Positions 2 through 15,619 of a stretch of DNA of 15,619 bases are shown piece after piece (the stretch's first letter is position 1; the number at the start of each line of letters is the position of its first letter). This DNA is from a virus (lineage: Duplodnaviria > Heunggongvirae > Uroviricota > Caudoviricetes). Both the position numbers and the translations under genes were made by a program. The stretch lies in the IMG/VR virus record IMGVR_UViG_3300035099_000022, positions 1 through 15,619 of that record. One strand, given 5' to 3'. The notes beneath the pieces are model-generated. The model made no database searches. It was not told the DNA's origin and saw only the letters and a list, made by a program, of their open reading frames with translations.

Positions 2-1924
2 GTAAGCATAGCCGCTGTCCCAAGCTCCGCGCCAGACTAAGCCGGGATCGCCTTGCGGTCCTTGCTCGCCTTGCGGTCCTTGCTCGCCTTGCGGTCCTTG
101 CTCGCCTTGCGGTCCTTGCTCGCCTTGTGGTCCTTGCTCGCCTTGCGGCCCCTGTGGCCCTTGCTCGCCTTGCGGTCCTTGCTCGCCTTGCGGTCCTTGC
201 GCGCCTTGCGGCCCCTGTGGCCCTTGCGGCCCCTGTGGCCCTTGCTCGCCTTGCGGTCCTTGCTCGCCTTGCGGTCCTTGCGCGCCTTTGGCAGCCAACA
301 CATTCCAGTAACTCGCGTTGGGCGGTTGCTGATTGGTGTTGGCTTGAATGCAGACGTAAGATGAGCCATTGCATTCAACAGCGTCATCTACGACGTAAGC
401 ATAGCCGCTGTCCCAAGCTCCGCGCCAGACTAAGCCGGGATCACCCTTGTCGCCCTTGTCGCCCTTGTCGCCCTTGTCACCTTTGTCACCTTTTGCACCT
501 GGACTTCCACTGCCACCACCACCACCCGCGCCAGTTTTACCAGGTTCACCTTTTGCAGCCAACACGTCCCAGTTTGTATTGCTTGTTGCTGTTGCAGGCG
601 GTCGTGCGATATTTGTCGGCTTGATACAAACAAAGGCGCTGCCCTTGTAGTGGACTGCATCGTCGGTGCTATAGGAAACACCAGGTTGCCACGCCCCTCG
701 CCATGTTAGACCCTGCTTGCCTTGCGGCCCCTGCGGCCCCTGCAGCCCCTGCGGCCCCTGTTGGCCTTCCCGTCCTTCCGGCCCCTGTGGGCCTTCCGGC
801 CCCTGTGGGCCTTCCGGCCCCTGTGGGCCTTCCGGCCCCTGTGGGCCTTCCGGTCCCTGCGGTCCCTGCGATCCCTGCGGGCCTTCCGGCCCCTGCGGGC
901 CTTGTGGGCCTTCCGGCCCCTGTGGGCCTTGTGGGCCTTCCGGCCCCTGTGGTCCCTGTGGGCCTTCCGGCCCTTGTGGGCCTTCCGGCCCCTGTGGTCC
1001 CTGTGGTCCCTGTGGGCCTTCCGGCCCTTGTGGGCCTTCCGGCCCTTGTGGGCCTTCTGGCCCCTGTGGTCCCTGTGGGCCTGGCTGTCCATCTATGCCA
1101 TCGCGACCGGGTTTTCCTTCCAGCCCCTGCGGGCCTTCCGGCCCCTGTGGGCCTTCTGGCCCCTGCGGGCCTTCCGGCCCCTGCGGGCCTTCCGGCCCCT
1201 GCGGGCCTTCCGGCCCCTGCGGGCCTTCCGGCCCCTGCGGGCCTTCTGGCCCCTGCGGGCCTTCCGGCCCCTGTGGGCCTTGTGGGCCTTCCGGCCCCTG
1301 TGGGCCTTGTGGGCCTTCCGGCCCCTGTGGGCCTTGTGGGCCTTCCGGCCCTTGTGGCCCCTGTGGGCCTTCTGGCCCCTGTGGGCCTTCCGGCCCCTGT
1401 GGGCCTTGCGGACCTTCCGGCCCCTGTGGGCCTTGCGGACCTTCCGGCCCTGGTTGTCCATCTACGCCGTTGCGACCAGGTTTTCCTTCCGGTCCTTCTG
1501 GCCCTTGTGGGCCTTGTGGGCCTTCCGGCCCTTCCGGCCCTTGCGGCCCTTGCGGCCCTGGTTGTCCATTCATGCCATCATGACCAGGTTTTCCTTCTGG
1601 CCCTTGCGGCCCTTGCGGCCCTTGCGGCCCTTGCGGCCCTTGCGGCCCTTGCGGCCCTTGCGGCCCTTGCGGCCCTTGCGGCCCTTCTGGCCCTTGCGGC
1701 CCTTGCGGCCCTTGCGGGCCTTCGGGTCCAAATTGGTCTACAAGTTCCCTGACTCGATCATCAATTTGGCAAACGAACGTGTGGAGTTTTAGAACGCCAT
1801 TTTCCACGGCCACAATTTCTTGTGCCATAAACTGCAAATCAGCCGGCGTTGGTGCGTCAATAATGCCAGACTCCCAAGTCGAGGGCCAAATGCCATTCCA
1901 TACTTGTTCAGGAAAGTGTGCCAT
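2..1924 (-). CDS. Collagen-like (G-X-Y) repeat protein with CBM5/12 (ChtBD3)-like modules; probable fibre/adhesin; 3' partial, at least 641 aa
   Basis: Manual translation from ATG 1924 (SD GAGGAGG upstream): [20 protein letters not shown]...DQF, then long GPQ/GPE triplets. Modules read [26 protein letters not shown]...WDVLAAKG and [26 protein letters not shown]...YWNVLAAKG; a third begins at the left edge. No stop seen in the segments translated. Missing from the ORF track because its stop lies outside the window. Confidence 0.9.
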
Positions 1925-1941: not shown

Positions 1942-2007
1942 TTGTCTCCGGTTGTCTCCGGTTGTCTCCGGTTGTCTCCGGTTGTCTCCGGTTGTCTCCG
2001 GTTGTCT
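1942..2007. repeat. 10-nt tandem repeat (GTTGTCTCCG, about 6.5 copies), intergenic
   Basis: Read directly. The minus-strand unit CGGAGACAAC contains GGAG, and the array abuts the collagen-gene RBS. Confidence 0.95.
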
Positions 2008-4014: not shown

Positions 4015-4614
4015 TCACTTCTTCTGCTTCACGGTGGTTATCTTCTGATTGGCGGGGACGTGCTCACCCATCCAGTCAAAGAAGTACCAGCGGTTGAGGC
4101 AGTCGATAACTGGGTCGTGGGCGATGTGTCGAAGGTAGCGTTTTACTTCGTCCCAAGTTGAAAAGATCATCTCGAAGGGAAGCACACCGAAGAGCCAATC
4201 AGGTGTGTGCTCAATACCTTGCTCGACGCGCACAAGGATGGGCTTCTTCATTCGGTTTGCCCAAGTTAGTTCCTCATAGGTGCCACATGCGTGGACGCGA
4301 AGATCAAGATTGACTACAAGGAAATCGGCGATGTCCACCATTCGCAGATCGACGGGGCGAATCTGCTTCATCTGGTTGCGGACGAATTCATAGTTACCGG
4401 CACATTTTGCTTTCTGGCGCAGGATACGGTTTTCCAAGTCTTCACCGCCAATGTTGATAGGTTTGCGCGTTGGGTCTAACCAGAGGATTTTCAGGTCTTT
4501 TAGGCTTTCGATCAGGTCTTGGCGCCAGCCGATGCCGCCATCCGTTGTGCGATCCATTGCACCACAGAGATAGCCGCGATTCAGCGCCAGTCGGTTCATT
4601 TTGTGTTTGCTCAC
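4015..4614 (-). CDS. Nucleoside 2-deoxyribosyltransferase-like / dNMP N-glycosidase family protein
   Basis: GYLCGAM, DP, DLRMVDIADFLVV, GTYEELTWA...KKP match the NDT/DNPH1 fold motifs. GTGA overlap with deoC. Confidence 0.75.
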   Translation of the reverse strand: MSKHKMNRLALNRGYLCGAMDRTTDGGIGWRQDLIESLKDLKILWLDPTRKPINIGGEDLENRILRQKAKCAGNYEFVRNQMKQIRPVDLRMVDIADFLVVNLDLRVHACGTYEELTWANRMKKPILVRVEQGIEHTPDWLFGVLPFEMIFSTWDEVKRYLRHIAHDPVIDCLNRWYFFDWMGEHVPANQKITTVKQKK

Positions 4615-5258
4615 GGCAACAATTCCTTGTAGTATGAGGAACCGATCCGTGTGCAGCCTAGGTTTAAATAGCGAGCGGCATCGGCATAGGTCTTGATTCC
4701 ACCGCTGGCTTTGACCTGGGCTTTGCCTTTCACAGCTTTAAGTATGGTTCGGACGGCTTCGGGAGTTGCGCCGCCGGCTGCGAAGCCGGTGGAGGTCTTT
4801 ACGAAGTCCACGCCACAGAAAACGCATATTCGGCAGGCTGCTTGAATCTGATTCGGTTGGTAGTAGCAGGTCTCCAAGATGGCTTTGATTTTTACACCGT
4901 GTTTTCGGGCCATGCTGACAAGGGTGCGCAATTCGTGGACCATTACTCCGCGTTGGCCGTCCAGAAAACGGCCGTAGTTGACCACCACGTCGATTTCGGT
5001 GGCTCCACAACTTATGGCTATTGCTGCCTCATGGAGCTTCACGAACGGCAGTGTGTTGCCATGCGGGAAGCCGATGACAGCACAGACTCGTGGCGTGTAG
5101 AGGCGGGCCAATTTTACATTACAAGGGGCTACACACAGGTTGCGGATATTCTCGCGGGTCACCAACCGTGCGGCTCGTCGGATTTCGTTGACAGTGGCCT
5201 CGGGCTTAAGTACCGCCAAGTCCAAGGCATCCGCGATCTGTTTCTTTGTATAGTTCAT
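4611..5258 (-). CDS. deoC: Deoxyribose-phosphate aldolase (DERA)
   Basis: LKP, VIGFPHG, GATEIDVVVN, KAILET, DFVKTSTGF (Schiff-base Lys), VKASGGIKT, RIGSS. Confidence 0.95.
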   Translation of the reverse strand: MNYTKKQIADALDLAVLKPEATVNEIRRAARLVTRENIRNLCVAPCNVKLARLYTPRVCAVIGFPHGNTLPFVKLHEAAIAISCGATEIDVVVNYGRFLDGQRGVMVHELRTLVSMARKHGVKIKAILETCYYQPNQIQAACRICVFCGVDFVKTSTGFAAGGATPEAVRTILKAVKGKAQVKASGGIKTYADAARYLNLGCTRIGSSYYKELLP

Positions 5259-5845: not shown

Positions 5846-6312
5846 CGGCGCACCTTGTAGGATAGGGTCCACAGCTTACGTTCACGCCCGTTGATGTGGC
5901 TGTGGCCGAAATAGGGCCAATAATCGTGCATGGCTTCATGGACTACGACCATTGCTCCGTCTTCTGCGGGCCAAGTGAGCACTTCAGGATCGATGCAGAT
6001 GCCAGGACAGTGTGGCATGTTGATGCCAATGGTTTTCTGCTCATCGAGACCGATGCATGGGGCCACCATGACACTCCATGCGCCCGCGCGGTTGTAACGC
6101 TGGATAGTGTAGTCTAGGATTCCTTGTAAGTCAGCATCGTCGCATTGCTTCCGCATTCGTTTCAAGTGGTCGATGGCTCTGTTGAGCCACGCCTGCTCGT
6201 ATTGATGGTCTCCGCAGAGACCGTACCACAGGCCACCCACGTAAGGCGCGGCGGTCCAGATGAAGACACCCAGTAGAAAGCCGCGAAAGACGGTGCAGGC
6301 GTGGTACTTCAC
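5833..6312 (-). CDS. Membrane-anchored HExxH protein (putative metallopeptidase)
   Basis: Hydrophobic N-terminal segment FLLGVFIWTAAPYVGGLW and motif VVHEAMHDYWPYFGHSH. The GTG at 6312 overlaps the ligase stop (GTGA). Confidence 0.65.
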   Translation of the reverse strand: MKYHACTVFRGFLLGVFIWTAAPYVGGLWYGLCGDHQYEQAWLNRAIDHLKRMRKQCDDADLQGILDYTIQRYNRAGAWSVMVAPCIGLDEQKTIGINMPHCPGICIDPEVLTWPAEDGAMVVVHEAMHDYWPYFGHSHINGRERKLWTLSYKVRRCRS

Positions 6313-7454
6313 AGTTCGCCCTCGTCTTTTGCGCCGTGGCGGTTTAAGTAATCTGCTGCGACTGATTTCAAGATCAGTCGGCCGAAGCAACATTGTTGTT
6401 CGACAAGGGGCGTAATTACAATTCCCTCACGGCCCTTGAATCTTGACTTGACTTTATCGGCTACTGTCGTCGGGCCGCACGTTAGTTGATCTACTAATTC
6501 CGGATGAAATGGGCCTTTGTAAAGCAATGGAACCGTTGGTACGTTATAGCGGTCGCAAAAACTTTTGAGCAGCGACCAGTCTTGGTAGGAACCGTTGATG
6601 CTGAGGTCGAAGCATCGCCAGCCGACTTCACCTGCAGGAATCCCGTAGTCTAAATCCTGGATGCCGGGGCCAAATAACTCGCCAAAAAGAATCACGTCGT
6701 CAGTCCGTTCGCCTCGATCACGGTTGCAGAGATCGGTGAGCAAGCCAAGTACACCTGCAAGCCGCGCAGGGTACCAGTAGATGGATTCTTGCCCTTCGGG
6801 CTCGAACCTCTTGCGAGCTGTTTTGTTGGAGCCGGCATAAAATAACCACTTGCCATCGACTTTCAACCAGCCTATGCGCGAGCATGTTCCGTGAATTTTC
6901 TCGGTTATTCTTACAGGCGTTCCTGGCTCTAGCAAGTGTCGGTATTTGCGGTAGTGCTGAATGTCGGTGTAGTGGTGGAAGTTGACTGGCTCCTGGACGA
7001 ATCCGCCCCAAACCGTGCCGCGGTTGATTCGTGCCGGCGGTTCATACTTGATGCCACGGAATTGTTCCGTTACGTCCACACCTGTCACGTCCACACCTGT
7101 TACGCCCCTACCTGTTACGTCCCCGCCCGGTGCCACCGACTTGCTCAGCACTGAGAGCGGTTGAACGAACCCATAGCTGGGCACGCCTCGCAGCCGGCAG
7201 GCTGCCACGCGACATGGTATCCGTTGGTTGTTGTAGGGGGCGGTCTTAAGGTACTTCTGGATACCTAGGGTTTCTGATACGTTGCTGGGGAGGCAGATGT
7301 CCGGTGGGAAATAGATGCATAAGTCACCGACCTTGAATTGACCCTTGACGATTAGCGTCTGTGTGCCGGCTACCTTAGCGATCTCCAGGTGATCTGCGTC
7401 AGGATGTGGCTCGATGGCTTCGATGCGTTCAACAGTGATGTTGACTTCACTCAT
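6309..7454 (-). CDS. ATP-dependent RNA ligase, DRB0094/Rnl5 family
   Basis: N-terminal IEPHPDADHLEIAKV...GQFKVGDLCIYFPPD, KYEPP, motif I TEKIHGT, FGELFGPGIQ, FD, VPLLYKG, REGIVI, LKSV. Confidence 0.9.
   Translation of the reverse strand: MSEVNITVERIEAIEPHPDADHLEIAKVAGTQTLIVKGQFKVGDLCIYFPPDICLPSNVSETLGIQKYLKTAPYNNQRIPCRVAACRLRGVPSYGFVQPLSVLSKSVAPGGDVTGRGVTGVDVTGVDVTEQFRGIKYEPPARINRGTVWGGFVQEPVNFHHYTDIQHYRKYRHLLEPGTPVRITEKIHGTCSRIGWLKVDGKWLFYAGSNKTARKRFEPEGQESIYWYPARLAGVLGLLTDLCNRDRGERTDDVILFGELFGPGIQDLDYGIPAGEVGWRCFDLSINGSYQDWSLLKSFCDRYNVPTVPLLYKGPFHPELVDQLTCGPTTVADKVKSRFKGREGIVITPLVEQQCCFGRLILKSVAADYLNRHGAKDEGEL
7065..7124. repeat. In-frame 15-nt repeat x4 (x-D-V-T-G) inside the RNA ligase
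   Basis: Encodes GDVTG RGVTG VDVTG VDVTE. Confidence 0.85.
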
Positions 7455-7496
7455 GCCTTTTACCCACGCTTTTCACTCACGCTTTTCACTCACGCC
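7446..7496. repeat. 13-nt tandem repeat x4 including the RNA ligase start codon
   Basis: Minus strand reads GGCGTGAGTGAAA AGCGTGAGTGAAA AGCGTGGGTAAA AGGCATGAGTGAA; the last copy carries the ATG. Confidence 0.85.
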
Positions 7497-7688: not shown

Positions 7689-7744
7689 TCCTGCGTGAGT
7701 TTCCTGCGTGAGTTTCCTGCGTGAGTTTCCTGCGTGAGTTTCCT
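7689..7744. repeat. 13-nt tandem repeat x4 (TCCTGCGTGAGTT) from a stop codon to the next RBS
   Basis: Minus strand reads TAG GAAACTCACGCAG x3 GAAACTCACGCAGGAG ACCCAAC ATG. Confidence 0.95.
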
Positions 7745-9028: not shown

Positions 9029-9288
9029 GAGTCATCCTTTTCCAACAAGATATCTTGGGCCTCCTCAAAAAGGTAGTCTTTCGTCAAATTGCCAACAACT
9101 TGGATCAGGAAACCAGCCCAGTAGATGATGCGCGGTCGATCGTCTTTCAATTTGGCGGCTTCCAGCTCATCCAGAGCGTACAAGACACGCTTGCCTTTCT
9201 TCGTGTAGTCGTCGGGGTTGAGATTCAATTCGGCTACAACAAAAGAGTTTTTGTCGTCTGCCAACTGATGCAAGGATTCTTTATTCAT
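9025..9288 (-). CDS. Hypothetical protein (87 aa)
   Basis: MNKESLHQLADDKNSF... The ATG at 9288 follows pentamer array C; the ORF-track start at 9327 lies within the repeat. Confidence 0.7.
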   Translation of the reverse strand: MNKESLHQLADDKNSFVVAELNLNPDDYTKKGKRVLYALDELEAAKLKDDRPRIIYWAGFLIQVVGNLTKDYLFEEAQDILLEKDDS

Positions 9289-9435
9289 GTTGTCGTCTCG
9301 CCCTTGCCTCGCCTTTGCCTCGCCCATTTGCCTCGCCTATTTGCCTTGCCTTGCCTTGCCTTGCCTTGCCACGCCTAGCCCGGCCTCGCCGTGCCCAGCC
9401 GCGCCCAGCTATGCCTGGCCGTGCCACGCCACGTT
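9289..9435 (-). repeat. (GGC-NN)n pentamer array C; candidate VIPR-type guide RNA
   Basis: Starts at the phosphoesterase stop: AAC-GT, then NN = GT AC CA AT TG GC TG AC GA CG TA GT (one AGC variant unit), GGCAA x6 (9341-9370), then degenerate GGCGA/GGCAA units up to the next ATG. Confidence 0.9.
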
Positions 9436-10237
9436 AAATCACCAATGCAGTTGCCTTTTGTGATTTCAACTTCGCCATCACTGGCTCGAAGCGTGTCACC
9501 TCGCCACGGTGGGTCTCGAAGACAATGAATCCAAAATCAACTAACCCCTCACACCTGCGCGATCCGAACCGCGTTCCCATTGCTTGCAGCGCCGGTGTCG
9601 TTAGTTGTAGGCGCGGCTCGATAGTGTCCATCGCAGCGTTGAAATAGTGGACGTGCGAACGAACTAGGACGTTGGCTCGCGGTGCATAGTCCCGGTCAGC
9701 CCAGAGAATATTCCAAAGGGCCGCCTTCTTTAGTCCTGTGCCCCGTGTTGTGGGAACCTGTGAGCCACTGATGAAGTGTTTAAAATCGAACATGACGCCG
9801 CCGATTTCGACCCACTCATGTGCGCCGATTTTCTCAGCCTTTAATTCCTTAGCGATGTCGTTTTCCCACTCTTCCTGGTCGCCTGTGTGGTAGGCCGTGC
9901 CGTAGGTCATCACTAACTTTGGATTGCCCACAAGTGCCTGCCGGATGGCATAGCACGCCATGTCAACTTGTTCTTGGCGGTTGGTGGTAATTTGTTCGCA
10001 CCCACCGGAACGATCGCCGCGACCGTCAATGGCGTCGCCGTTGATGACCACCAAGTCATACGGGCCGTTGGCCACCACATTTTTGATGTACCACTGCCAC
10101 GCCTCTCGCTGGATTAAAGCGAATTTCACCCGCTTCGTGCGGCCGTTTGATTCGGATGAATCAGTCTGCCATGCGGGCGGCGTCAAGCCGACTAAGTGGC
10201 CACAATGTAGGTCCGCCAATACAAGGGTTCGCTTCAT
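9434..10237 (-). CDS. Calcineurin-like metallophosphoesterase
   Basis: LADLHCG, INGDAIDG, FKH and SHVH motifs. GTAYH sits at the usual GNH position. Confidence 0.85.
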   Translation of the reverse strand: MKRTLVLADLHCGHLVGLTPPAWQTDSSESNGRTKRVKFALIQREAWQWYIKNVVANGPYDLVVINGDAIDGRGDRSGGCEQITTNRQEQVDMACYAIRQALVGNPKLVMTYGTAYHTGDQEEWENDIAKELKAEKIGAHEWVEIGGVMFDFKHFISGSQVPTTRGTGLKKAALWNILWADRDYAPRANVLVRSHVHYFNAAMDTIEPRLQLTTPALQAMGTRFGSRRCEGLVDFGFIVFETHRGEVTRFEPVMAKLKSQKATALVI

Positions 10238-10430
10238 TGTTATGTCTTATCTTGTTTTGCCCTTGTCTTGTCTTGTTTTGTCTTGTCTTGTTTTGTCTTG
10301 CCTTGCCTTGCCTTGCCTTGCCTTGCCTTGCCTTGCCTTGCCTTGCCTTGCCTTGCCCCGCCACGCCGTGCCTCGCCAAGCCGGGCCCTGCCTAGCCCAG
10401 CCACGCCGAGCCGCGCTGTGTCGTGTCGCA
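10238..10430 (-). repeat. (GGC-NN)n pentamer array B; candidate VIPR-type guide RNA
   Basis: Begins a few nt after the RAMP-gene stop: GAC-AC GAC-AC AGC-GC, then NN = TC GT TG TA AG CC TT GA AC GT GG, GGCAA x12 (10298-10357), then GACAA/AACAA units up to ATG 10237. Confidence 0.9.
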
Positions 10431-10433
10431 AAA

Positions 10434-11015
10434 TTACGCTTTCTCCCAGCTTGTGACTTGAAATTTTCCGTAGACACCGCGGAATGTTCCTAGTCCAATA
10501 GCTACGCCAGACTTCACAAGGAGATTCTGCACTGTTTCTTCTTTCACCTCGTCATTTTCAAACAAGGTTAACGTGAACCGCAGTTCCCAGGGTAAAGGCA
10601 GTACAGGCCGCACCTTGGGATTCGGAATGCCGTTCCTCAACCGGGCCACGGCCCGATGAATGTAGCAACCTGATTTAGGATCACGTTCTTGAGCATCGAA
10701 ACCACTGAAAACGATGGGTTGGCCCTCACGGAGAAAGGGAATCTCCATCGGGTCGACGCTCACAAAGCTGCAAAGAGCTGCAGCCATTCGTTTGTATTTA
10801 CGGGAGTCGAGGAATCGTTTCGGAGCGCTTGGTGTGTTTTGTGCCGATAACAGAGAAAGGATGTTGGCAGACGGCAGGTAAATTGTGTTGTCGCTCTGCA
10901 GGTAAAGTTTTTGGTCTGGTCTCAGTTCCGTTCGATTGTCGCCTGCATAGCGATCGAACATGATATCGCTGATTCCAGTCAGCGTAATTTTGCGCAAAAT
11001 GTCGGTTGTTTTCAT
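10434..11015 (-). CDS. vipr: Cas7/RAMP-like protein, candidate Vipr effector (193 aa)
   Basis: RAMP-like pattern: N-terminal strand ITLTGISDIMF, IYLPSANILSLL (cf. Cas7 'IPGSSLKG'), RPVLPLPWELRFTL, and C-terminal Gly-rich loop GVAIGLGTFRGVYGKFQV. SD AAGGAG precedes ATG 11015. Flanked by GGC-NN arrays. The symbol is assigned from locus architecture and my recollection of the literature, not from a search. Confidence 0.75.
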   Translation of the reverse strand: MKTTDILRKITLTGISDIMFDRYAGDNRTELRPDQKLYLQSDNTIYLPSANILSLLSAQNTPSAPKRFLDSRKYKRMAAALCSFVSVDPMEIPFLREGQPIVFSGFDAQERDPKSGCYIHRAVARLRNGIPNPKVRPVLPLPWELRFTLTLFENDEVKEETVQNLLVKSGVAIGLGTFRGVYGKFQVTSWEKA

Positions 11016-11100
11016 CTGCAATCTCCTTTAGGTCTTGTACGAAGTCATCTGGGTCAGGGACGGGAATTTCGTCACGTGTCGTGAGACGAAAGATAGAAAC

Positions 11101-11160
11101 GGTGCGTGTCATTTAGGTGCGTGTTATTTAGATACGTGTTATTTAGATGCGTGTCATTTA
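11101..11160. repeat. 15-nt tandem repeat x4 (TAAATRACACGYAYC on the minus strand) between array A and the RAMP gene
   Basis: TAAATGACACGCATC TAAATAACACGTATC TAAATAACACGCACC TAAATGACACGCACC. Confidence 0.9.
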
Positions 11161-11165
11161 GAAGC

Positions 11166-11260
11166 TTGCCTTGCCTTGCCTTGCCCTGCCGCGCCCGGCC
11201 ATGCCCCGCCCAGCCATGCCCCGCCTTGCCCCGCCCAGCCTAGCCCAGCCCAGCCGCGAC
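11166..11260 (-). repeat. (GGC-NN)n pentamer array A; candidate VIPR-type guide RNA
   Basis: GTC-GC, then 18 perfect GGC units with NN = TG TG TA TG GG AA GG AT TG GG AT CG GC AG AA AA AA AA. Confidence 0.9.
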
Positions 11261-13575: not shown

Positions 13576-13652
13576 GGTTATTCCTCTGGGTTATTCCTCT
13601 GAGCTATTCCTTTGGGTATTCCTTTGAGCTATTCCTCTGGGCTATTCCTCTG
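13576..13652. repeat. 13-nt tandem repeat x6 running from a stop codon to the next RBS/ATG
   Basis: Minus-strand units CARAGGAATARCY (one 12-nt unit). The first contains the upstream TAG and the last abuts ATG 13575. Confidence 0.95.
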
Positions 13653-13995
13653 GGTATGGGTCTACATCGCATGCTGCTTCAGCCGGCTGGAAGAAAGGAT
13701 TGGGTATTTCCACGACCGGTTGTGGTCTGGGTCGGATTTCAAGACTCTTGTTATCTGTTGTGTTTTTGGCGGGTGTTTGAGGCACTTGTTGCCGAACCAG
13801 GGAGAGCGTAATCGTTGGGATCAAATTGCCAGGGAGCAGCGTATCTTGATCGCCTACGTATTCAATGTTGATGGCGCAATGGTTCAGGTCAGCTCGATCA
13901 GCGGTCTGCGCCAATTTGATGAAAGCATCAGCAATCTGTGGACCAGTCATGGGGGCGGTCTGGATACGATTGAGAATGAAAAGTGGGATGGGCAT
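13642..13995 (-). CDS. Hypothetical protein (117 aa)
   Basis: SD AAAGG before ATG 13995; fills the gap after dut. Confidence 0.6.
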   Translation of the reverse strand: MPIPLFILNRIQTAPMTGPQIADAFIKLAQTADRADLNHCAINIEYVGDQDTLLPGNLIPTITLSLVRQQVPQTPAKNTTDNKSLEIRPRPQPVVEIPNPFFQPAEAACDVDPYPEE

Positions 13996-14031: not shown

Positions 14032-14448
14032 TCATATTCCGGTGCTTCCGAATCCGTTAGCGCCTCGCGACGTGTCGCTCAATTCATTCACCTCTTCCAC
14101 TGCCCAAGTCTCCACTGCTTGGAACAGGACTTGAGCAATCCGGTCCCCGGCTGTAATTTCAAATGGCTTGCCGGATAGATTACAGAGCACCACGCCCCAG
14201 GGGCCGCGATAATCGGAATCAATTACACCGGCAAAGCGGTGAATGCCCTTGGCTCCCATTCCGGAACGGTCCCAGATTAGAGCCACATATCCGCGGGGGA
14301 ATTCCACGGCAATGCCTGTGGGCACAATTACGGTCTTTGCCACAGGGATGATTATGTCCTGGCAGGCATACAGATCGTAGCCTGCGGAGTTATGAGCACG
14401 AGTTGGCAGTTTGGCGGTAGGAACTAGCTTCTTTACTCGAAGAATCAT
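14032..14448 (-). CDS. dut: Trimeric dUTPase
   Basis: All five motifs are present: AGYDL, RSG, GVIDSDYRG, GDRIAQ, RGANGFGSTG. Confidence 0.97.
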   Translation of the reverse strand: MILRVKKLVPTAKLPTRAHNSAGYDLYACQDIIIPVAKTVIVPTGIAVEFPRGYVALIWDRSGMGAKGIHRFAGVIDSDYRGPWGVVLCNLSGKPFEITAGDRIAQVLFQAVETWAVEEVNELSDTSRGANGFGSTGI

Positions 14449-14546
14449 TTGGCAGATTCCAAAGTTGCGGAAAGCCCCGGTGACAGGGATAGCTTAACGA
14501 ATCCAATACGCTGCAGGAAAGCTAAGTACCGCTCAAGATCAGTCAT
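14445..14546 (-). CDS. 33-aa ORF coupled at both ends, not in ORF track
   Basis: MTDLERYLAFLQRIGFVKLSLSPGLSATLESAK*. ATGA overlaps with both the deaminase stop and the dut start. Confidence 0.55.
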   Translation of the reverse strand: MTDLERYLAFLQRIGFVKLSLSPGLSATLESAK

Positions 14547-15043
14547 GGTGTCCAAAGCCTCCCATTGAAAAGGATTGTGAAATCGGAGGTGAATATTTGC
14601 CCGTCGAAATATTCTCGGACAACGCCTGCCTCATCAAGCATCTTATTACCTTCGTCGATGCTTTTTTGCCACCGTTCTGGTGTTTGATCCATCGCCTGTT
14701 TATGGCCAACAACGTGCTTGATGCCGGCTAAAATAATCGCTCGGGCACAATCAGCGCACGCAAACCAAGGGCAAAACAACGTAGCTCCATTTGTCTTAAT
14801 ACCGTGCCGCGCTGCCTCGTAAATTGCAGCCCGCTCGGCGTGCTCTATAAAGGTGTATTTCTGTGGCCGCTCTAGTCTCTCAGCCGATATGACGACGTTG
14901 CCGGGGATCGCATTTACGCCGCTAGTGATTGGCTCGTATCCTTTTGGAACCAGAATGGCTCCATTCTGAGTAGCTGGATCGTTACTCAGGCGTTGAGCAC
15001 GGATGTAGGCAAATCGTAACATGGTTTCATTGGTGTGCAACAT
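14543..15043 (-). CDS. dCMP deaminase (ComEB/T4 cd family)
   Basis: SDP/GA-like NDPATQNGAILV, HAERAAI, PWFACADCARAIILAGI. ATG 15043 follows the RNR stop by 1 nt. Confidence 0.9.
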   Translation of the reverse strand: MLHTNETMLRFAYIRAQRLSNDPATQNGAILVPKGYEPITSGVNAIPGNVVISAERLERPQKYTFIEHAERAAIYEAARHGIKTNGATLFCPWFACADCARAIILAGIKHVVGHKQAMDQTPERWQKSIDEGNKMLDEAGVVREYFDGQIFTSDFTILFNGRLWTP

Positions 15044-15044
15044 T

Positions 15045-15619
15045 TTAGACTCCACAGACGCCGCCGTGTCCGGTTAGACTGCATACATCATGGGCTGCAA
15101 TCGCCTCTTCAAATACCTTGCCAAGATTCTCTCTTGCCTCGGTGTAGCTTACAGGTGTCAGCGGTTGCCCGCCACGGGCGCCGTCAGGATAGACCGTGAA
15201 GCCACGCAGTCGGGGTGCGTAATGGGCCAGGGTGGCGGCAAAGTCTTTAACGGTGTCAAGGTTGTTCAGTCGGCTTCCCCAGCGAGGCAGGTTGATTGTT
15301 GAACTGATTGCTTGGTCAACATAGGATTGAATCTCAACCTGAAACTTGATTCGTCGTCGGTAGTTAGACGCTAGATCGAGAGCGCTTTCTATCATCTCTG
15401 GATTCAAGTCGTAATGGTCGATCAACTCTTGTGCAGCGCTGTCGATTACATATTGATAGTGCCATTTCGCATTTTCGCGGAGATACCGGCGTTTGTAAGC
15501 GACGGCATAAATAGGCTCGATGCCAGTGCTGGTGCCGGCGAGAATTCCAATTGTGCCTGTAGGAGCACACGCCCGCTTGGCTACTGGACGCGAAATGCTT
15601 AGCTTATCGCAAAAGGCGT
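15045..15619 (-). CDS. Ribonucleotide reductase catalytic subunit, C-terminal part (5' partial; class II/NrdJ-like probable)
   Basis: The frame is open to the right edge: APTGTIGILAGTSTGIEP, QSYVDQAISSTINLP, RGFTVYPDGAR, and a C-terminal Cys pair CSLTGHGGVCGV. Class cannot be proven from this fragment. Confidence 0.93.
   Translation of the reverse strand, partial: AFCDKLSISRPVAKRACAPTGTIGILAGTSTGIEPIYAVAYKRRYLRENAKWHYQYVIDSAAQELIDHYDLNPEMIESALDLASNYRRRIKFQVEIQSYVDQAISSTINLPRWGSRLNNLDTVKDFAATLAHYAPRLRGFTVYPDGARGGQPLTPVSYTEARENLGKVFEEAIAAHDVCSLTGHGGVCGV

What the first reader, a model, noticed from the sequence alone, without database searches (positions are those of the whole stretch)
9289..11260. 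Cas7/RAMP-like gene interleaved with three (GGC-NN)n arrays: candidate RNA-guided system with a gapped dinucleotide code (VIPR-like)
Seen in sequence: three separate arrays (11166-11260, 10238-10430, 9289-9435) lie on the coding strand, each downstream of a stop codon. Each has strict 5-nt phase, near-invariant GGC, a unique run of 11-14 variable NN, and then a constant GGCAA tail. They surround a 193-aa gene with RAMP hallmarks (IYLPSANILSLL; G-rich loop GLGTFRGVYGKF). A fixed scaffold with information confined to NN is not what a slippage microsatellite produces. Established: Cas7 subunits polymerise along RNA with a fixed per-subunit step. Recollection, unverified here: VIPR systems were reported as a RAMP protein plus alternating GGY/NN RNAs, where the NNs specify a gapped DNA target with every third base skipped, directed at competing phages. 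Inference: this phage carries one effector and three different guides, with no Cas1/2, Cas6 or nuclease visible in the window.
Basis: partly seen in the sequence, partly recalled or inferred. Interest (0 to 1): 0.97.

Follow-up and report, generated by a model that had tools for sequence, protein, structure and literature searches.

The report
Phage VIPR system, three guide arrays
This uncultured 82-kb sediment phage carries a genuine VIPR system, the CRISPR-related RNA-guided DNA silencer described in 2026 preprints: one small Cas7-like protein gene and three guide-RNA arrays of five-base GGC-NN units, so it is a well-supported new example of a known kind, and what it targets is still unknown.

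Summary
Three phase-locked GGC-NN arrays (14, 11 and 12 variable units, then 4, 12 and 6 GGCAA units) are the only such arrays in the 81.8-kb phage genome. All lie on the coding strand around one 193-aa gene.

In 77 of 80 viral contigs that encode a homologue, GGY-NN arrays lie beside the gene on the same strand. A sibling phage about 90% identical in the flanks has arrays at the same three sites, with an intact GGC scaffold but essentially unrelated NN strings.

Features particular to this clade:
- The constant 3' part is a plain (GGCAA)n run, not a structured pseudoknot.
- There is no conserved accessory gene.
- Guides sit singly in the gaps between early genes.

The enclosed metallophosphoesterase is probably an ordinary phage early gene. 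No natural target was found and there is no self-targeting. This scan has already found VIPR in at least 11 other genomes. Verdict: a new member of a known kind.

The parts
11166..11260 (-). vrRNA array A1. Lead-in unit GTCGC (11256-11260), 14 variable GGC-NN units (11186-11255), then (GGCAA)4 (11166-11185). The predicted target footprint is 41 bp under the 1-nt-skip rule.
   Evidence: The same site in sibling L097 holds an array with different NN.
11067..11162 (-). Spacer between A1 and vipr: a 15-nt tandem repeat TAAATRACACGYAYC x4 (11103-11162) and a short palindromic hairpin (about 11067-11091). Its role is unknown; a promoter/operator or processing site is possible.
   Evidence: the fold is not better than shuffles. 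The start of the repeat is conserved in L097.
10434..11015 (-). vipr gene: a 193-aa stand-alone RAMP protein (P0001). An AAGGAG Shine-Dalgarno sequence lies upstream. The predicted thumb is the beta-hairpin at residues 118-139 and the G-loop is GLGTFRGVYGKF at residues 174-185.
   Evidence: the only copy in the genome.
10238..10417 (-). vrRNA array A2. Lead-in AGCGC (10413-10417), 11 variable units (10358-10412), (GGCAA)12 (10298-10357), then a degenerate GACAA/AACAA decay (10238-10297) that runs into the next ATG. The predicted footprint is 32 bp.
   Evidence: Its 12-unit AA run is the longest among the 177 arrays surveyed.
9434..10237 (-). A 267-aa metallophosphoesterase (MPP fold; conserved DxH, GD and HxH metal-binding motifs) enclosed between A2 and A3. 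It is probably a resident phage early gene. A role as a VIPR accessory is not established.
9290..9435 (-). vrRNA array A3. Lead-in AACGT (9431-9435), 12 variable units (9371-9430; the fifth has AGC), (GGCAA)6 (9341-9370), then a degenerate 13-nt GGCGAGGCAAAT-type repeat (about 9290-9340) up to the next gene's ATG at 9287. The predicted footprint is 35 bp.

Best explanation
The locus is a VIPR (Viral Interference Programmable Repeat) system in a divergent, mostly metagenomic Vipr clade.

Inferred from the SUSP1 work: the minus-strand early-gene transcripts carry three vrRNAs. Vipr protomers bind one per 5-nt unit, and two neighbouring protomers sequester each GGC. The exposed NN dinucleotides then pair with double-stranded DNA, reading two of every three bases. 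This gives gapped footprints of 41, 32 and 35 bp and silences genes of a competing phage, prophage or satellite.

Shown here: the protein's fold and family, the array anatomy, the family-wide coupling of gene and array on one strand, NN hypervariability on a fixed scaffold, and the absence of self-targets.

Inferred only: transcription and processing, RNP assembly, DNA (not RNA) as the target, and silencing as the outcome.

The constant (GGCAA)n run at the 3' end of each guide most likely stands in for the invariant 3' tail of published vrRNAs. It would act as a non-targeting cap or nucleation segment. Its long run in A2 is a slippage expansion.
For: Fold:
- The AF2 model has pLDDT 87.9.
- All top 50 Foldseek PDB hits are type III/VII Csm3/Cas7 subunits.

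Family:
- The top five AFDB clusters are X1U2U4, A0A0F9A1L0, A0A1F4YLN4, A0A661D0E2 and A0A2D6XG06. These are exactly the five VIPR founders named in the preprint's methods.
- A 77-sequence family profile hits PDB 36pp 'SUSP1 Vipr protein' at E 1.2e-9, co-linear over thumb to G-loop.
- SUSP1 R138 and R179 are invariant here as R136 and R179, and W178 is F178.

Arrays:
- There are 14, 11 and 12 variable units, within the published 9-16.
- 77 of 80 homologue loci carry arrays, 174 on the gene's strand against 4 opposite.
- 105 of 177 arrays end in AA units, against 11 of 177 that start with them.

Hypervariability:
- L097 has a Vipr 96% identical and flanks 89-93% identical. Its NN strings are only 46-58% identical even after the best unit-level alignment. 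A1 cannot be told apart from shuffled unit order and A3 only marginally.

Other:
- No self-target rises above the shuffled-guide null, as published.
- No CRISPR or other Rfam family is present.
- The record is a virus record.
Against: - No natural target was found for any of the three guides in the viral, metagenome or genome collections.
- No RNA data exist for this phage, so expression and processing are untested.
- There is no structured 3' tail like the SUSP1 pseudoknot.
- SUSP1's G1-contacting D177 is T177 here.
- No conserved vap-like accessory gene exists in this clade.
- No promoter or terminator consensus was found on the coding strand near the arrays.
Confidence: 0.9

Rival explanations
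1. It is a VIPR system whose enclosed metallophosphoesterase is a dedicated accessory (vap-like) nuclease. Guide binding would then lead to target destruction rather than silencing, as proposed for the published nuclease-bearing types.
For: - The MPE gene sits between two arrays here. It is adjacent to vipr on the same strand in 9 of 80 homologue loci, sometimes upstream and sometimes downstream, across Vipr identities of 47-79%.
- Its metal-binding motifs are intact.
- Its fold matches include Mre11 and the PolD DP1 exonuclease.
Against: - 71 of 80 Vipr loci lack it.
- All 6 sampled loci of more distant MPE homologues (46-58% identity) have neither vipr nor arrays within 3 kb.
- Other Vipr neighbours are generic early genes such as YqaJ, ERF and AAA_24.
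- The fold search does not separate nuclease from phosphatase or diesterase: GpdQ, LpxH and Vps29 score equally well.
Confidence: 0.12
2. The Vipr-array RNP acts on RNA, or in cis on the phage's own polycistronic transcript (for example by controlling processing or translation of the flanking genes), rather than on foreign DNA.
For: - The nearest solved folds are RNA-targeting type III Csm3/Cmr4 subunits.
- The arrays fill the intergenic gaps of one co-oriented operon.
- The A2 and A3 tails run right up to start codons that lack a Shine-Dalgarno sequence.
- No DNA target was found.
Against: - The homologous SUSP1 system binds dsDNA by the 1-nt-skip rule, both in vitro and in vivo.
- NN strings differ completely between siblings that share the same flanking genes. 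That fits trans-acting guides and not cis regulation of conserved genes.
- The guides have no match in the phage's own genome.
Confidence: 0.05
3. The arrays are slippage microsatellites or structural DNA with no guide function, and their position next to a RAMP-like gene is coincidental.
For: The (GGCAA)12 run of A2, its GACAA decay, and the 13-nt degenerate repeat after A3 do look like slippage products.
Against: - Information is confined to NN (1.9 bits) while GGC is fixed (0.18 bits or less).
- The gene-array coupling holds family-wide and is strand-specific, in 77 of 80 loci.
- Sibling phages keep the position and scaffold of the arrays but not the NN strings.
Confidence: 0.01

Closest known systems
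VIPR systems (Vipr protein plus vrRNA); type II exemplars are Escherichia phage SUSP1 and a Pseudomonas fulva prophage. Sources: bioRxiv 10.64898/2026.04.26.720920, 10.64898/2026.04.26.720927 and 10.64898/2026.10.15.759431; PDB 36pp.
   Same: - A stand-alone RAMP protein of about 20 kDa, with RRM core, thumb and G-loop.
- GGY-NN pentamer tracts of 9-16 units on the gene's strand, both upstream and downstream of the gene.
- Hypervariable NN on an invariant scaffold.
- A variable tract followed by a constant 3' part.
- Phage-encoded, with no cas genes and no CRISPR array.
- No self-targeting.
   Different: - Sequence identity to SUSP1 Vipr is detectable only by profile, and only over the C-terminal third (E 1.2e-9).
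- D177 is replaced by T and W178 by F.
- The constant 3' part is a plain (GGCAA)2-12 repeat, not a roughly 40-nt pseudoknot tail.
- Guides are single and interleaved with protein genes, not in a downstream tandem array.
- No vap1-like DNA-binding accessory gene is present.
- Targets are unknown.
- The type (I-VII) could not be assigned because the preprint's supplementary tables are not held.
CRISPR-Cas class 1 backbone subunits (Csm3/Cmr4/Cas7 of types III, VII, I and IV)
   Different: - The step is 5 nt with 3 guide bases sequestered, not 6 nt with one flipped.
- There are no repeat-spacer array, Cas6, Cas10/large subunit, Cas1 or Cas2.
- There is no second RRM.
- It is encoded by a virus.
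Other VIPR loci already found by this scan in other genomes (for example notes e1-5325385, e1-5361203 and e1-5351670)
   Same: The same kind of locus: a stand-alone RAMP gene flanked by GGY-NN arrays in phage or prophage DNA. e1-5361203 quotes motifs (..IMFDRY.., VARLDKGIPNPKVRP) that match this family's consensus.
   Different: Those are different genomes with different guide strings and different accessory genes or tails (a ParB-like helper, tRNA-like tails, staggered arrays). The (GGCAA)n tail and the gene-interleaved layout are this clade's own features.

Membership tests
VIPR (Vipr + vrRNA) | Homology to established Vipr proteins | tested here: met
   The AFDB top five hits are the five founder accessions listed in the preprint. 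The family profile matches PDB 36pp SUSP1 Vipr at E 1.2e-9; a narrower profile gives E 3.6e-4.
VIPR (Vipr + vrRNA) | Adjacent tandem GGY-NN (YNNGG) repeats, 9-16 units, on the gene's strand | tested here: met
   There are 14, 11 and 12 variable units, all on the minus strand like the gene. The same coupling holds in 77 of 80 homologue loci.
VIPR (Vipr + vrRNA) | GGY conserved and NN hypervariable among close relatives | tested here: met
   Entropy is 0-0.18 bits at GGC against 1.9 bits at NN. In sibling L097 the flanks are 89-93% identical, the GGC scaffold is kept, and NN identity is 46-58% after best alignment, with A1 not distinguishable from shuffled order.
VIPR (Vipr + vrRNA) | An invariable 3' tail after the repeat tract (a structured pseudoknot in the SUSP1 clade) | tested here: inconclusive
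   A constant 3' element exists but it is (GGCAA)n, and 105 of 177 arrays in the clade end this way. The three arrays share no structure and no other common sequence. Whether it acts as a tail is untested.
VIPR (Vipr + vrRNA) | GGY-contacting residues of SUSP1 Vipr (R138, D177, W178, R179; also H17 and K33) | tested here: inconclusive
   R138 corresponds to R136 and R179 to R179, both invariant across 77 representatives. W178 is F178 and D177 is T177. H17 and K33 could not be aligned because the N-terminal part gives no sequence match.
VIPR (Vipr + vrRNA) | A vipr-accessory gene (vap) in the locus | tested here: inconclusive
   There is no universally conserved neighbour. The MPE gene appears in 9 of 80 loci, YqaJ in 14 and ERF in 10. 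The preprint says loci 'typically' have a vap and lists six vap genes for seven types, so a vap may not be obligatory.
VIPR (Vipr + vrRNA) | Guides match foreign mobile elements by the 1-nt-skip rule, with no self-targets | tested here: inconclusive
   Absence of self-targets is met. No foreign target rose above chance. The collection scans allow only exact matches.
VIPR (Vipr + vrRNA) | vrRNAs are expressed and co-purify with Vipr; the RNP binds dsDNA | not testable with these tools
   No RNA run holds this sequence.
CRISPR-Cas class 1 effector (Cas7/Csm3) | A CRISPR repeat-spacer array and partner cas genes (Cas5, large subunit, Cas6, Cas1/2) | tested here: not met
   Rfam finds no CRISPR repeat family. 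Tandem and direct repeats show only short-period arrays. The neighbouring genes are a Zn-ribbon protein, the MPE, a methyltransferase and AAA_28.
Slippage microsatellite | A uniform unit whose variation is in copy number or random decay across all positions | tested here: not met
   This is met only by the GGCAA, GACAA and 13-nt tails. In the 37 variable units, variation is confined to two of the five positions.

The most novel reading that the evidence does not exclude
This clade could be a VIPR architecture not yet described. In it a plain (GGCAA)n run replaces the structured 3' tail, acting as a non-pairing segment that loads or caps the Vipr filament. Single guides would be cut out of the intergenic gaps of a polycistronic early transcript with no dedicated accessory gene, so guide supply would be tied to early-gene expression.
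Probability: 0.25. Interest if true: 0.45.

Novelty: new member of a known kind. Interest (0 to 1): 0.35.

Why it matters
VIPR is months old and has been characterised experimentally only in type II enterobacterial and Pseudomonas systems. This locus does three things.

- It shows that the same protein-plus-pentamer logic operates in a large, environmentally widespread clade: over 1,700 protein clusters at 90% identity, from sediment and hot-spring phages.
- It gives a clean natural experiment. Two sibling phages share the same three insertion sites but have different NN strings, which supports rapid reprogramming of guides.
- It points to a minimal tail, (GGCAA)n, that could simplify engineered vrRNAs if it proves sufficient.

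It does not change the concept, and its targets remain unknown.

Tried and rejected
1. Target search with full-length patterns. Exact 1-nt-skip patterns for A1, A2 and A3 gave 0 hits in viral contigs. A2 gave 0 in metagenome contigs. A3, with its irregular unit left free, gave 0 in genome contigs.

2. Target search with sub-patterns.
- A 20-base sub-pattern of A1 gave 0 hits in metagenomes.
- 18-base sub-patterns gave 1, 0 and 1 isolated hits in viral contigs, plus one hit in a Gammaproteobacteria MAG at 20 of 24 positions. All of these are at the chance level expected for 18 specified bases.
- A3 units 1-4 and 6-10 hit seven viral contigs. All seven are one in-frame motif, VTQIKAWTDRL, of a lambdoid tyrosine integrase, with the skipped bases on wobble positions. 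This is thematically attractive, because a later preprint reports VIPR targeting of a satellite recombinase. I rejected it as evidence for four reasons. It is one independent event, matching the chance rate of the other scans. Only 18 of 24 NN positions match, below the published 80% threshold. The three remaining units all mismatch. And the integrase is of the mEp390/enterobacterial type while this phage comes from sediment.

3. Cross-targeting. 1,490 eight-unit guide windows from 177 arrays were searched against all fetched loci and the whole genome under skip rules 0-3, with no hits under rules 1-3. Mismatch-tolerant scoring of 111 relatives' guides against this genome, and of this phage's guides against all loci, equalled the shuffled controls.

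4. Expression. No RNA holder is listed.

5. Complex prediction with three Vipr copies returned no verdict.

6. Single-sequence searches. Pfam and NCBIfam gave nothing for the Vipr protein. PHROGs gave only phrog_4652, of unknown function.

7. The promoter/terminator scan found nothing on the coding strand.

8. RNA folding found no shared structured tail. The z-scores of -2.7 and -2.8 for A2 and A3 come from GC-rich repeat self-pairing.

9. The VIPR type could not be assigned because the preprint's supplementary tables are not held.

10. The genome search 'relatives' is not available for a virus record.
Full report
**What is in the sequence.**
The window is the first 15.6 kb of an 81,827-b linear IMG/VR-type virus record, with 54% G+C and a CheckV completeness estimate of about 80%. 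Its DNA is held almost completely by one sediment metagenome run, and partly by two hot-spring runs.

Nearly all long ORFs in the window are on the minus strand. They encode early or nucleotide-metabolism functions: dUTPase, dCMP deaminase, two DNA methyltransferases, RNA ligase, AAA_28, and a DeoC/NDT-like pair.

Three arrays of 5-nt units lie on that same strand, in three consecutive intergenic gaps:
- A1, 11166-11255: 14 variable GGC-NN units then 4 GGCAA.
- A2, 10298-10412: 11 variable units then 12 GGCAA, decaying into GACAA/AACAA units down to the next ATG at 10237.
- A3, 9341-9430: 12 variable units (one with AGC) then 6 GGCAA, followed by a degenerate 13-nt repeat.

Each array is preceded by an imperfect unit that keeps the C (GTCGC, AGCGC, AACGT). 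In the published YNNGG register the first unit is therefore complete.

The three arrays are the only ones in the genome. The longest run is 23 units, against a maximum of 5 in 100 Markov surrogates.

**The gene between A1 and A2.**
The gene at 10434-11015 (minus strand) encodes a 193-aa protein, P0001. Pfam and NCBIfam find nothing in it. It belongs to a large, almost entirely metagenomic family: 1,734 clusters at 90% identity and 289 representatives at 50% identity. A few members are named, from a Planctomycetes MAG, a Microcystis strain and Burkholderia phage vB_E436.

- AFDB neighbours. The five best AlphaFold-DB clusters are X1U2U4, A0A0F9A1L0, A0A1F4YLN4, A0A661D0E2 and A0A2D6XG06. These are exactly the five proteins the VIPR discovery preprint names as its founding non-CRISPR RAMP hits, and they rank ahead of every CRISPR RAMP.
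- Sequence. A 77-sequence family profile matches PDB 36pp, 'SUSP1 Vipr protein', at E 1.2e-9. The match is co-linear from the thumb to the C-terminal strand, positions 125-190 against 127-189. A 32-sequence profile gave E 3.6e-4.
- Contact residues. The structure preprint assigns G2 and Y3 contacts to R138, W178 and R179, and G1 contacts to D177 and H17. Here R136 and R179 are invariant across the family, W178 is F178 and D177 is T177.

The protein is therefore a Vipr homologue of a divergent clade.

**Coupling of gene and arrays.**
In 80 IMG/VR loci encoding homologues (47-79% identity), 77 carry GGY-NN arrays of 6 or more units next to the gene. There are 174 arrays on the gene's strand and 4 on the other strand, all four in one locus.

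Across 177 arrays, position 3 is C in 92% of units and T in 6%. All 16 dinucleotides occur at NN. Variable segments peak at 9-13 units, in line with the published 9-16.

A clade-specific feature is the 3' end. In 105 of 177 arrays at least two of the last four units are GGCAA, against 11 of 177 for the first four units. The window's three arrays share no other 3' sequence, and folding finds no common structure. So (GGCAA)n is the only candidate for the 'invariable tail' that published vrRNAs carry as a pseudoknot. AA runs elsewhere are 2-6 units long. The 12-unit run of A2 with its GACAA decay is an outlier that looks like slippage.

**A natural experiment.**
Contig L097 is syntenic with the window: methyltransferase, Zn-ribbon gene, vipr, MPE, a 92-aa gene, a 240-aa gene, AAA_28, RNA ligase. 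It is 89-93% identical in nucleotide sequence, and its Vipr is 96% identical.

It has arrays at the same three sites, with the same lead-in and trailing sequences and an intact GGC scaffold, but its NN strings are different. In ungapped register A2 shares 2 of 22 NN bases. After the best unit-level alignment, NN identity is 46-58%. A1 is indistinguishable from shuffled unit order, and A2 and A3 are marginal, with p = 0.09 and 0.05.

A 78%-identical relative (L100/L101) instead has four tandem guides downstream of vipr. Each ends in GGCAA units, and they are separated by a conserved spacer of about 37 nt. A fifth guide lies after the next gene.

Guides are therefore exchanged or rewritten much faster than their surroundings evolve. 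That is the signature expected of programmable specificity, and it rules out the 'drift from AA' alternative.

**The enclosed 267-aa gene.**
This is a metallophosphoesterase. Pfam gives a weak Metallophos hit. The DxH, GD and HxH motifs are invariant in 36 homologues. The AF2 model has pLDDT 89.5. Its fold matches spread evenly over GpdQ, Mre11, PolD DP1, LpxH and Vps29, so nuclease and phosphatase cannot be told apart.

It is adjacent to vipr in 9 of 80 loci, on either side. But six of six loci of more distant homologues have neither vipr nor arrays. Other Vipr loci have YqaJ, ERF or AAA_24 genes as neighbours. I read it as a resident early gene around which guides have been inserted, and I give about 12% to its being a dedicated accessory. 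No conserved vap-like gene exists in this clade.

**Targets.**
I used the published rule: the non-target strand reads NN-x-NN in the guide's orientation, searched on both strands.

- There is no self-target. The best own-genome matches are 68% or less of NN positions, equal to shuffled guides.
- No full-length exact match was found in the viral, metagenome or genome collections.
- Shorter exact seeds gave chance-level singletons.
- One seven-contig hit of A3 fell on an in-frame lambdoid integrase motif. I do not accept it. It is one independent event at the chance rate, it matches only 18 of 24 positions, and it comes from the wrong ecology.
- Local cross-targeting tests among 177 arrays and all fetched loci were negative.

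Targets remain unknown. The collection scans accept only exact patterns, so this is a weak negative.

**Mechanism and status of each step.**
- Shown here: the fold and family of the protein; the anatomy and statistical reality of the arrays; strand-specific gene-array coupling across the family; NN hypervariability on a fixed scaffold; the absence of self-targets; and the absence of CRISPR or cas components.
- Inferred from the SUSP1 work: transcription and trimming of RNAs of about 70-120 nt; one Vipr protomer per pentamer; GGC sequestered by two adjacent protomers; NN presented for pairing with two of every three target bases, often codon positions 1-2; R-loop and triplex formation; and transcriptional silencing of competing mobile elements.
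- Inference of my own: (GGCAA)n serves as a non-pairing 3' cap or loading segment. A target would otherwise need a run of AAx codons, which seems implausible for coding targets.

No RNA data exist. A homotrimer prediction gave no verdict.

**Comparison and novelty.**
VIPR was described in April-October 2026 preprints. A language-model survey recovered 99 clusters of intergenic sequences with the 5-nt VIPR-like period. This scan has already confirmed VIPR loci in at least 11 other genomes, including look-alikes of this protein.

The locus passes every membership feature that could be tested decisively. The tail, the D177 position, the accessory gene and the targets are inconclusive. It is a new member of a known kind. 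Its own features are the GGCAA tail, single guides interleaved with early genes, the lack of a vap gene, and the sibling pair with swapped guides.

Noticed in passing
window 11103-11162 and about 11067-11091 (minus strand): A 15-nt tandem repeat, TAAATRACACGYAYC x4, followed by a short palindromic hairpin (TTTCGTC..GACGAAA), lies between array A1 and the vipr start. The start of the repeat is conserved in sibling L097. It may be an operator/promoter or a processing signal for the locus.
   Followed up: partly
window 1942-2007, 7446-7495, 7689-7744, 13579-13654: Several other short intergenic tandem repeats (10-nt x6.6, 13-nt x3.8, 13-nt x4.3 perfect, 13-nt x5.9) lie between minus-strand genes. 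They are unrelated to the pentamer arrays, and the cause is unknown.
   Followed up: no
window 2-1924 (minus strand; repeats at 711-1723): A long ORF with 9/18/27-nt periodic repeats (about 56 copies of an 18-mer) looks like a collagen-like Gly-X-Y repeat protein, probably a fibre or structural protein.
   Followed up: no
L100:4596-5009 and L101:686-1099: A relative whose Vipr is 78% identical has four tandem guides downstream of vipr. Each has 11-13 variable units and 2-4 GGCAA units, and they are separated by a conserved spacer of about 37 nt (CCTCCAACTGRATAAGCAACTAAGT...). That spacer is a candidate processing or tail element, and it is absent from the window.
   Followed up: partly
L029:4-855: This is the only homologue locus with GGY-NN arrays on the strand opposite to vipr: four arrays of 7-24 units at the contig end. 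It may be a second, inverted system or solo guides.
   Followed up: no
L103:1868-1937 (Burkholderia phage vB_E436, PQ789831.1): A cultured phage has a Vipr homologue (52% identity, annotated as hypothetical) and one upstream 14-unit array that mixes GGC and GGA units. This hints that position 3 is relaxed in that branch. It is also a usable experimental model for this clade.
   Followed up: partly
L083-L089 (for example L086:12027-12055): Guide A3 matches 9 of its 12 units, in frame, on the motif VTQIKAWTDRL of mEp390-like lambdoid integrases, with the skipped bases on wobble positions. I judged this to be at chance level, but it is worth rechecking with a mismatch-tolerant search.
   Followed up: yes
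window 4015-5258, 14032-15055, 6309-7454: The window holds a nucleotide-pool and repair gene set: an NDT-like gene plus DeoC, dUTPase, dCMP deaminase, and an RNA ligase with a PHA02142 OB domain.
   Followed up: no
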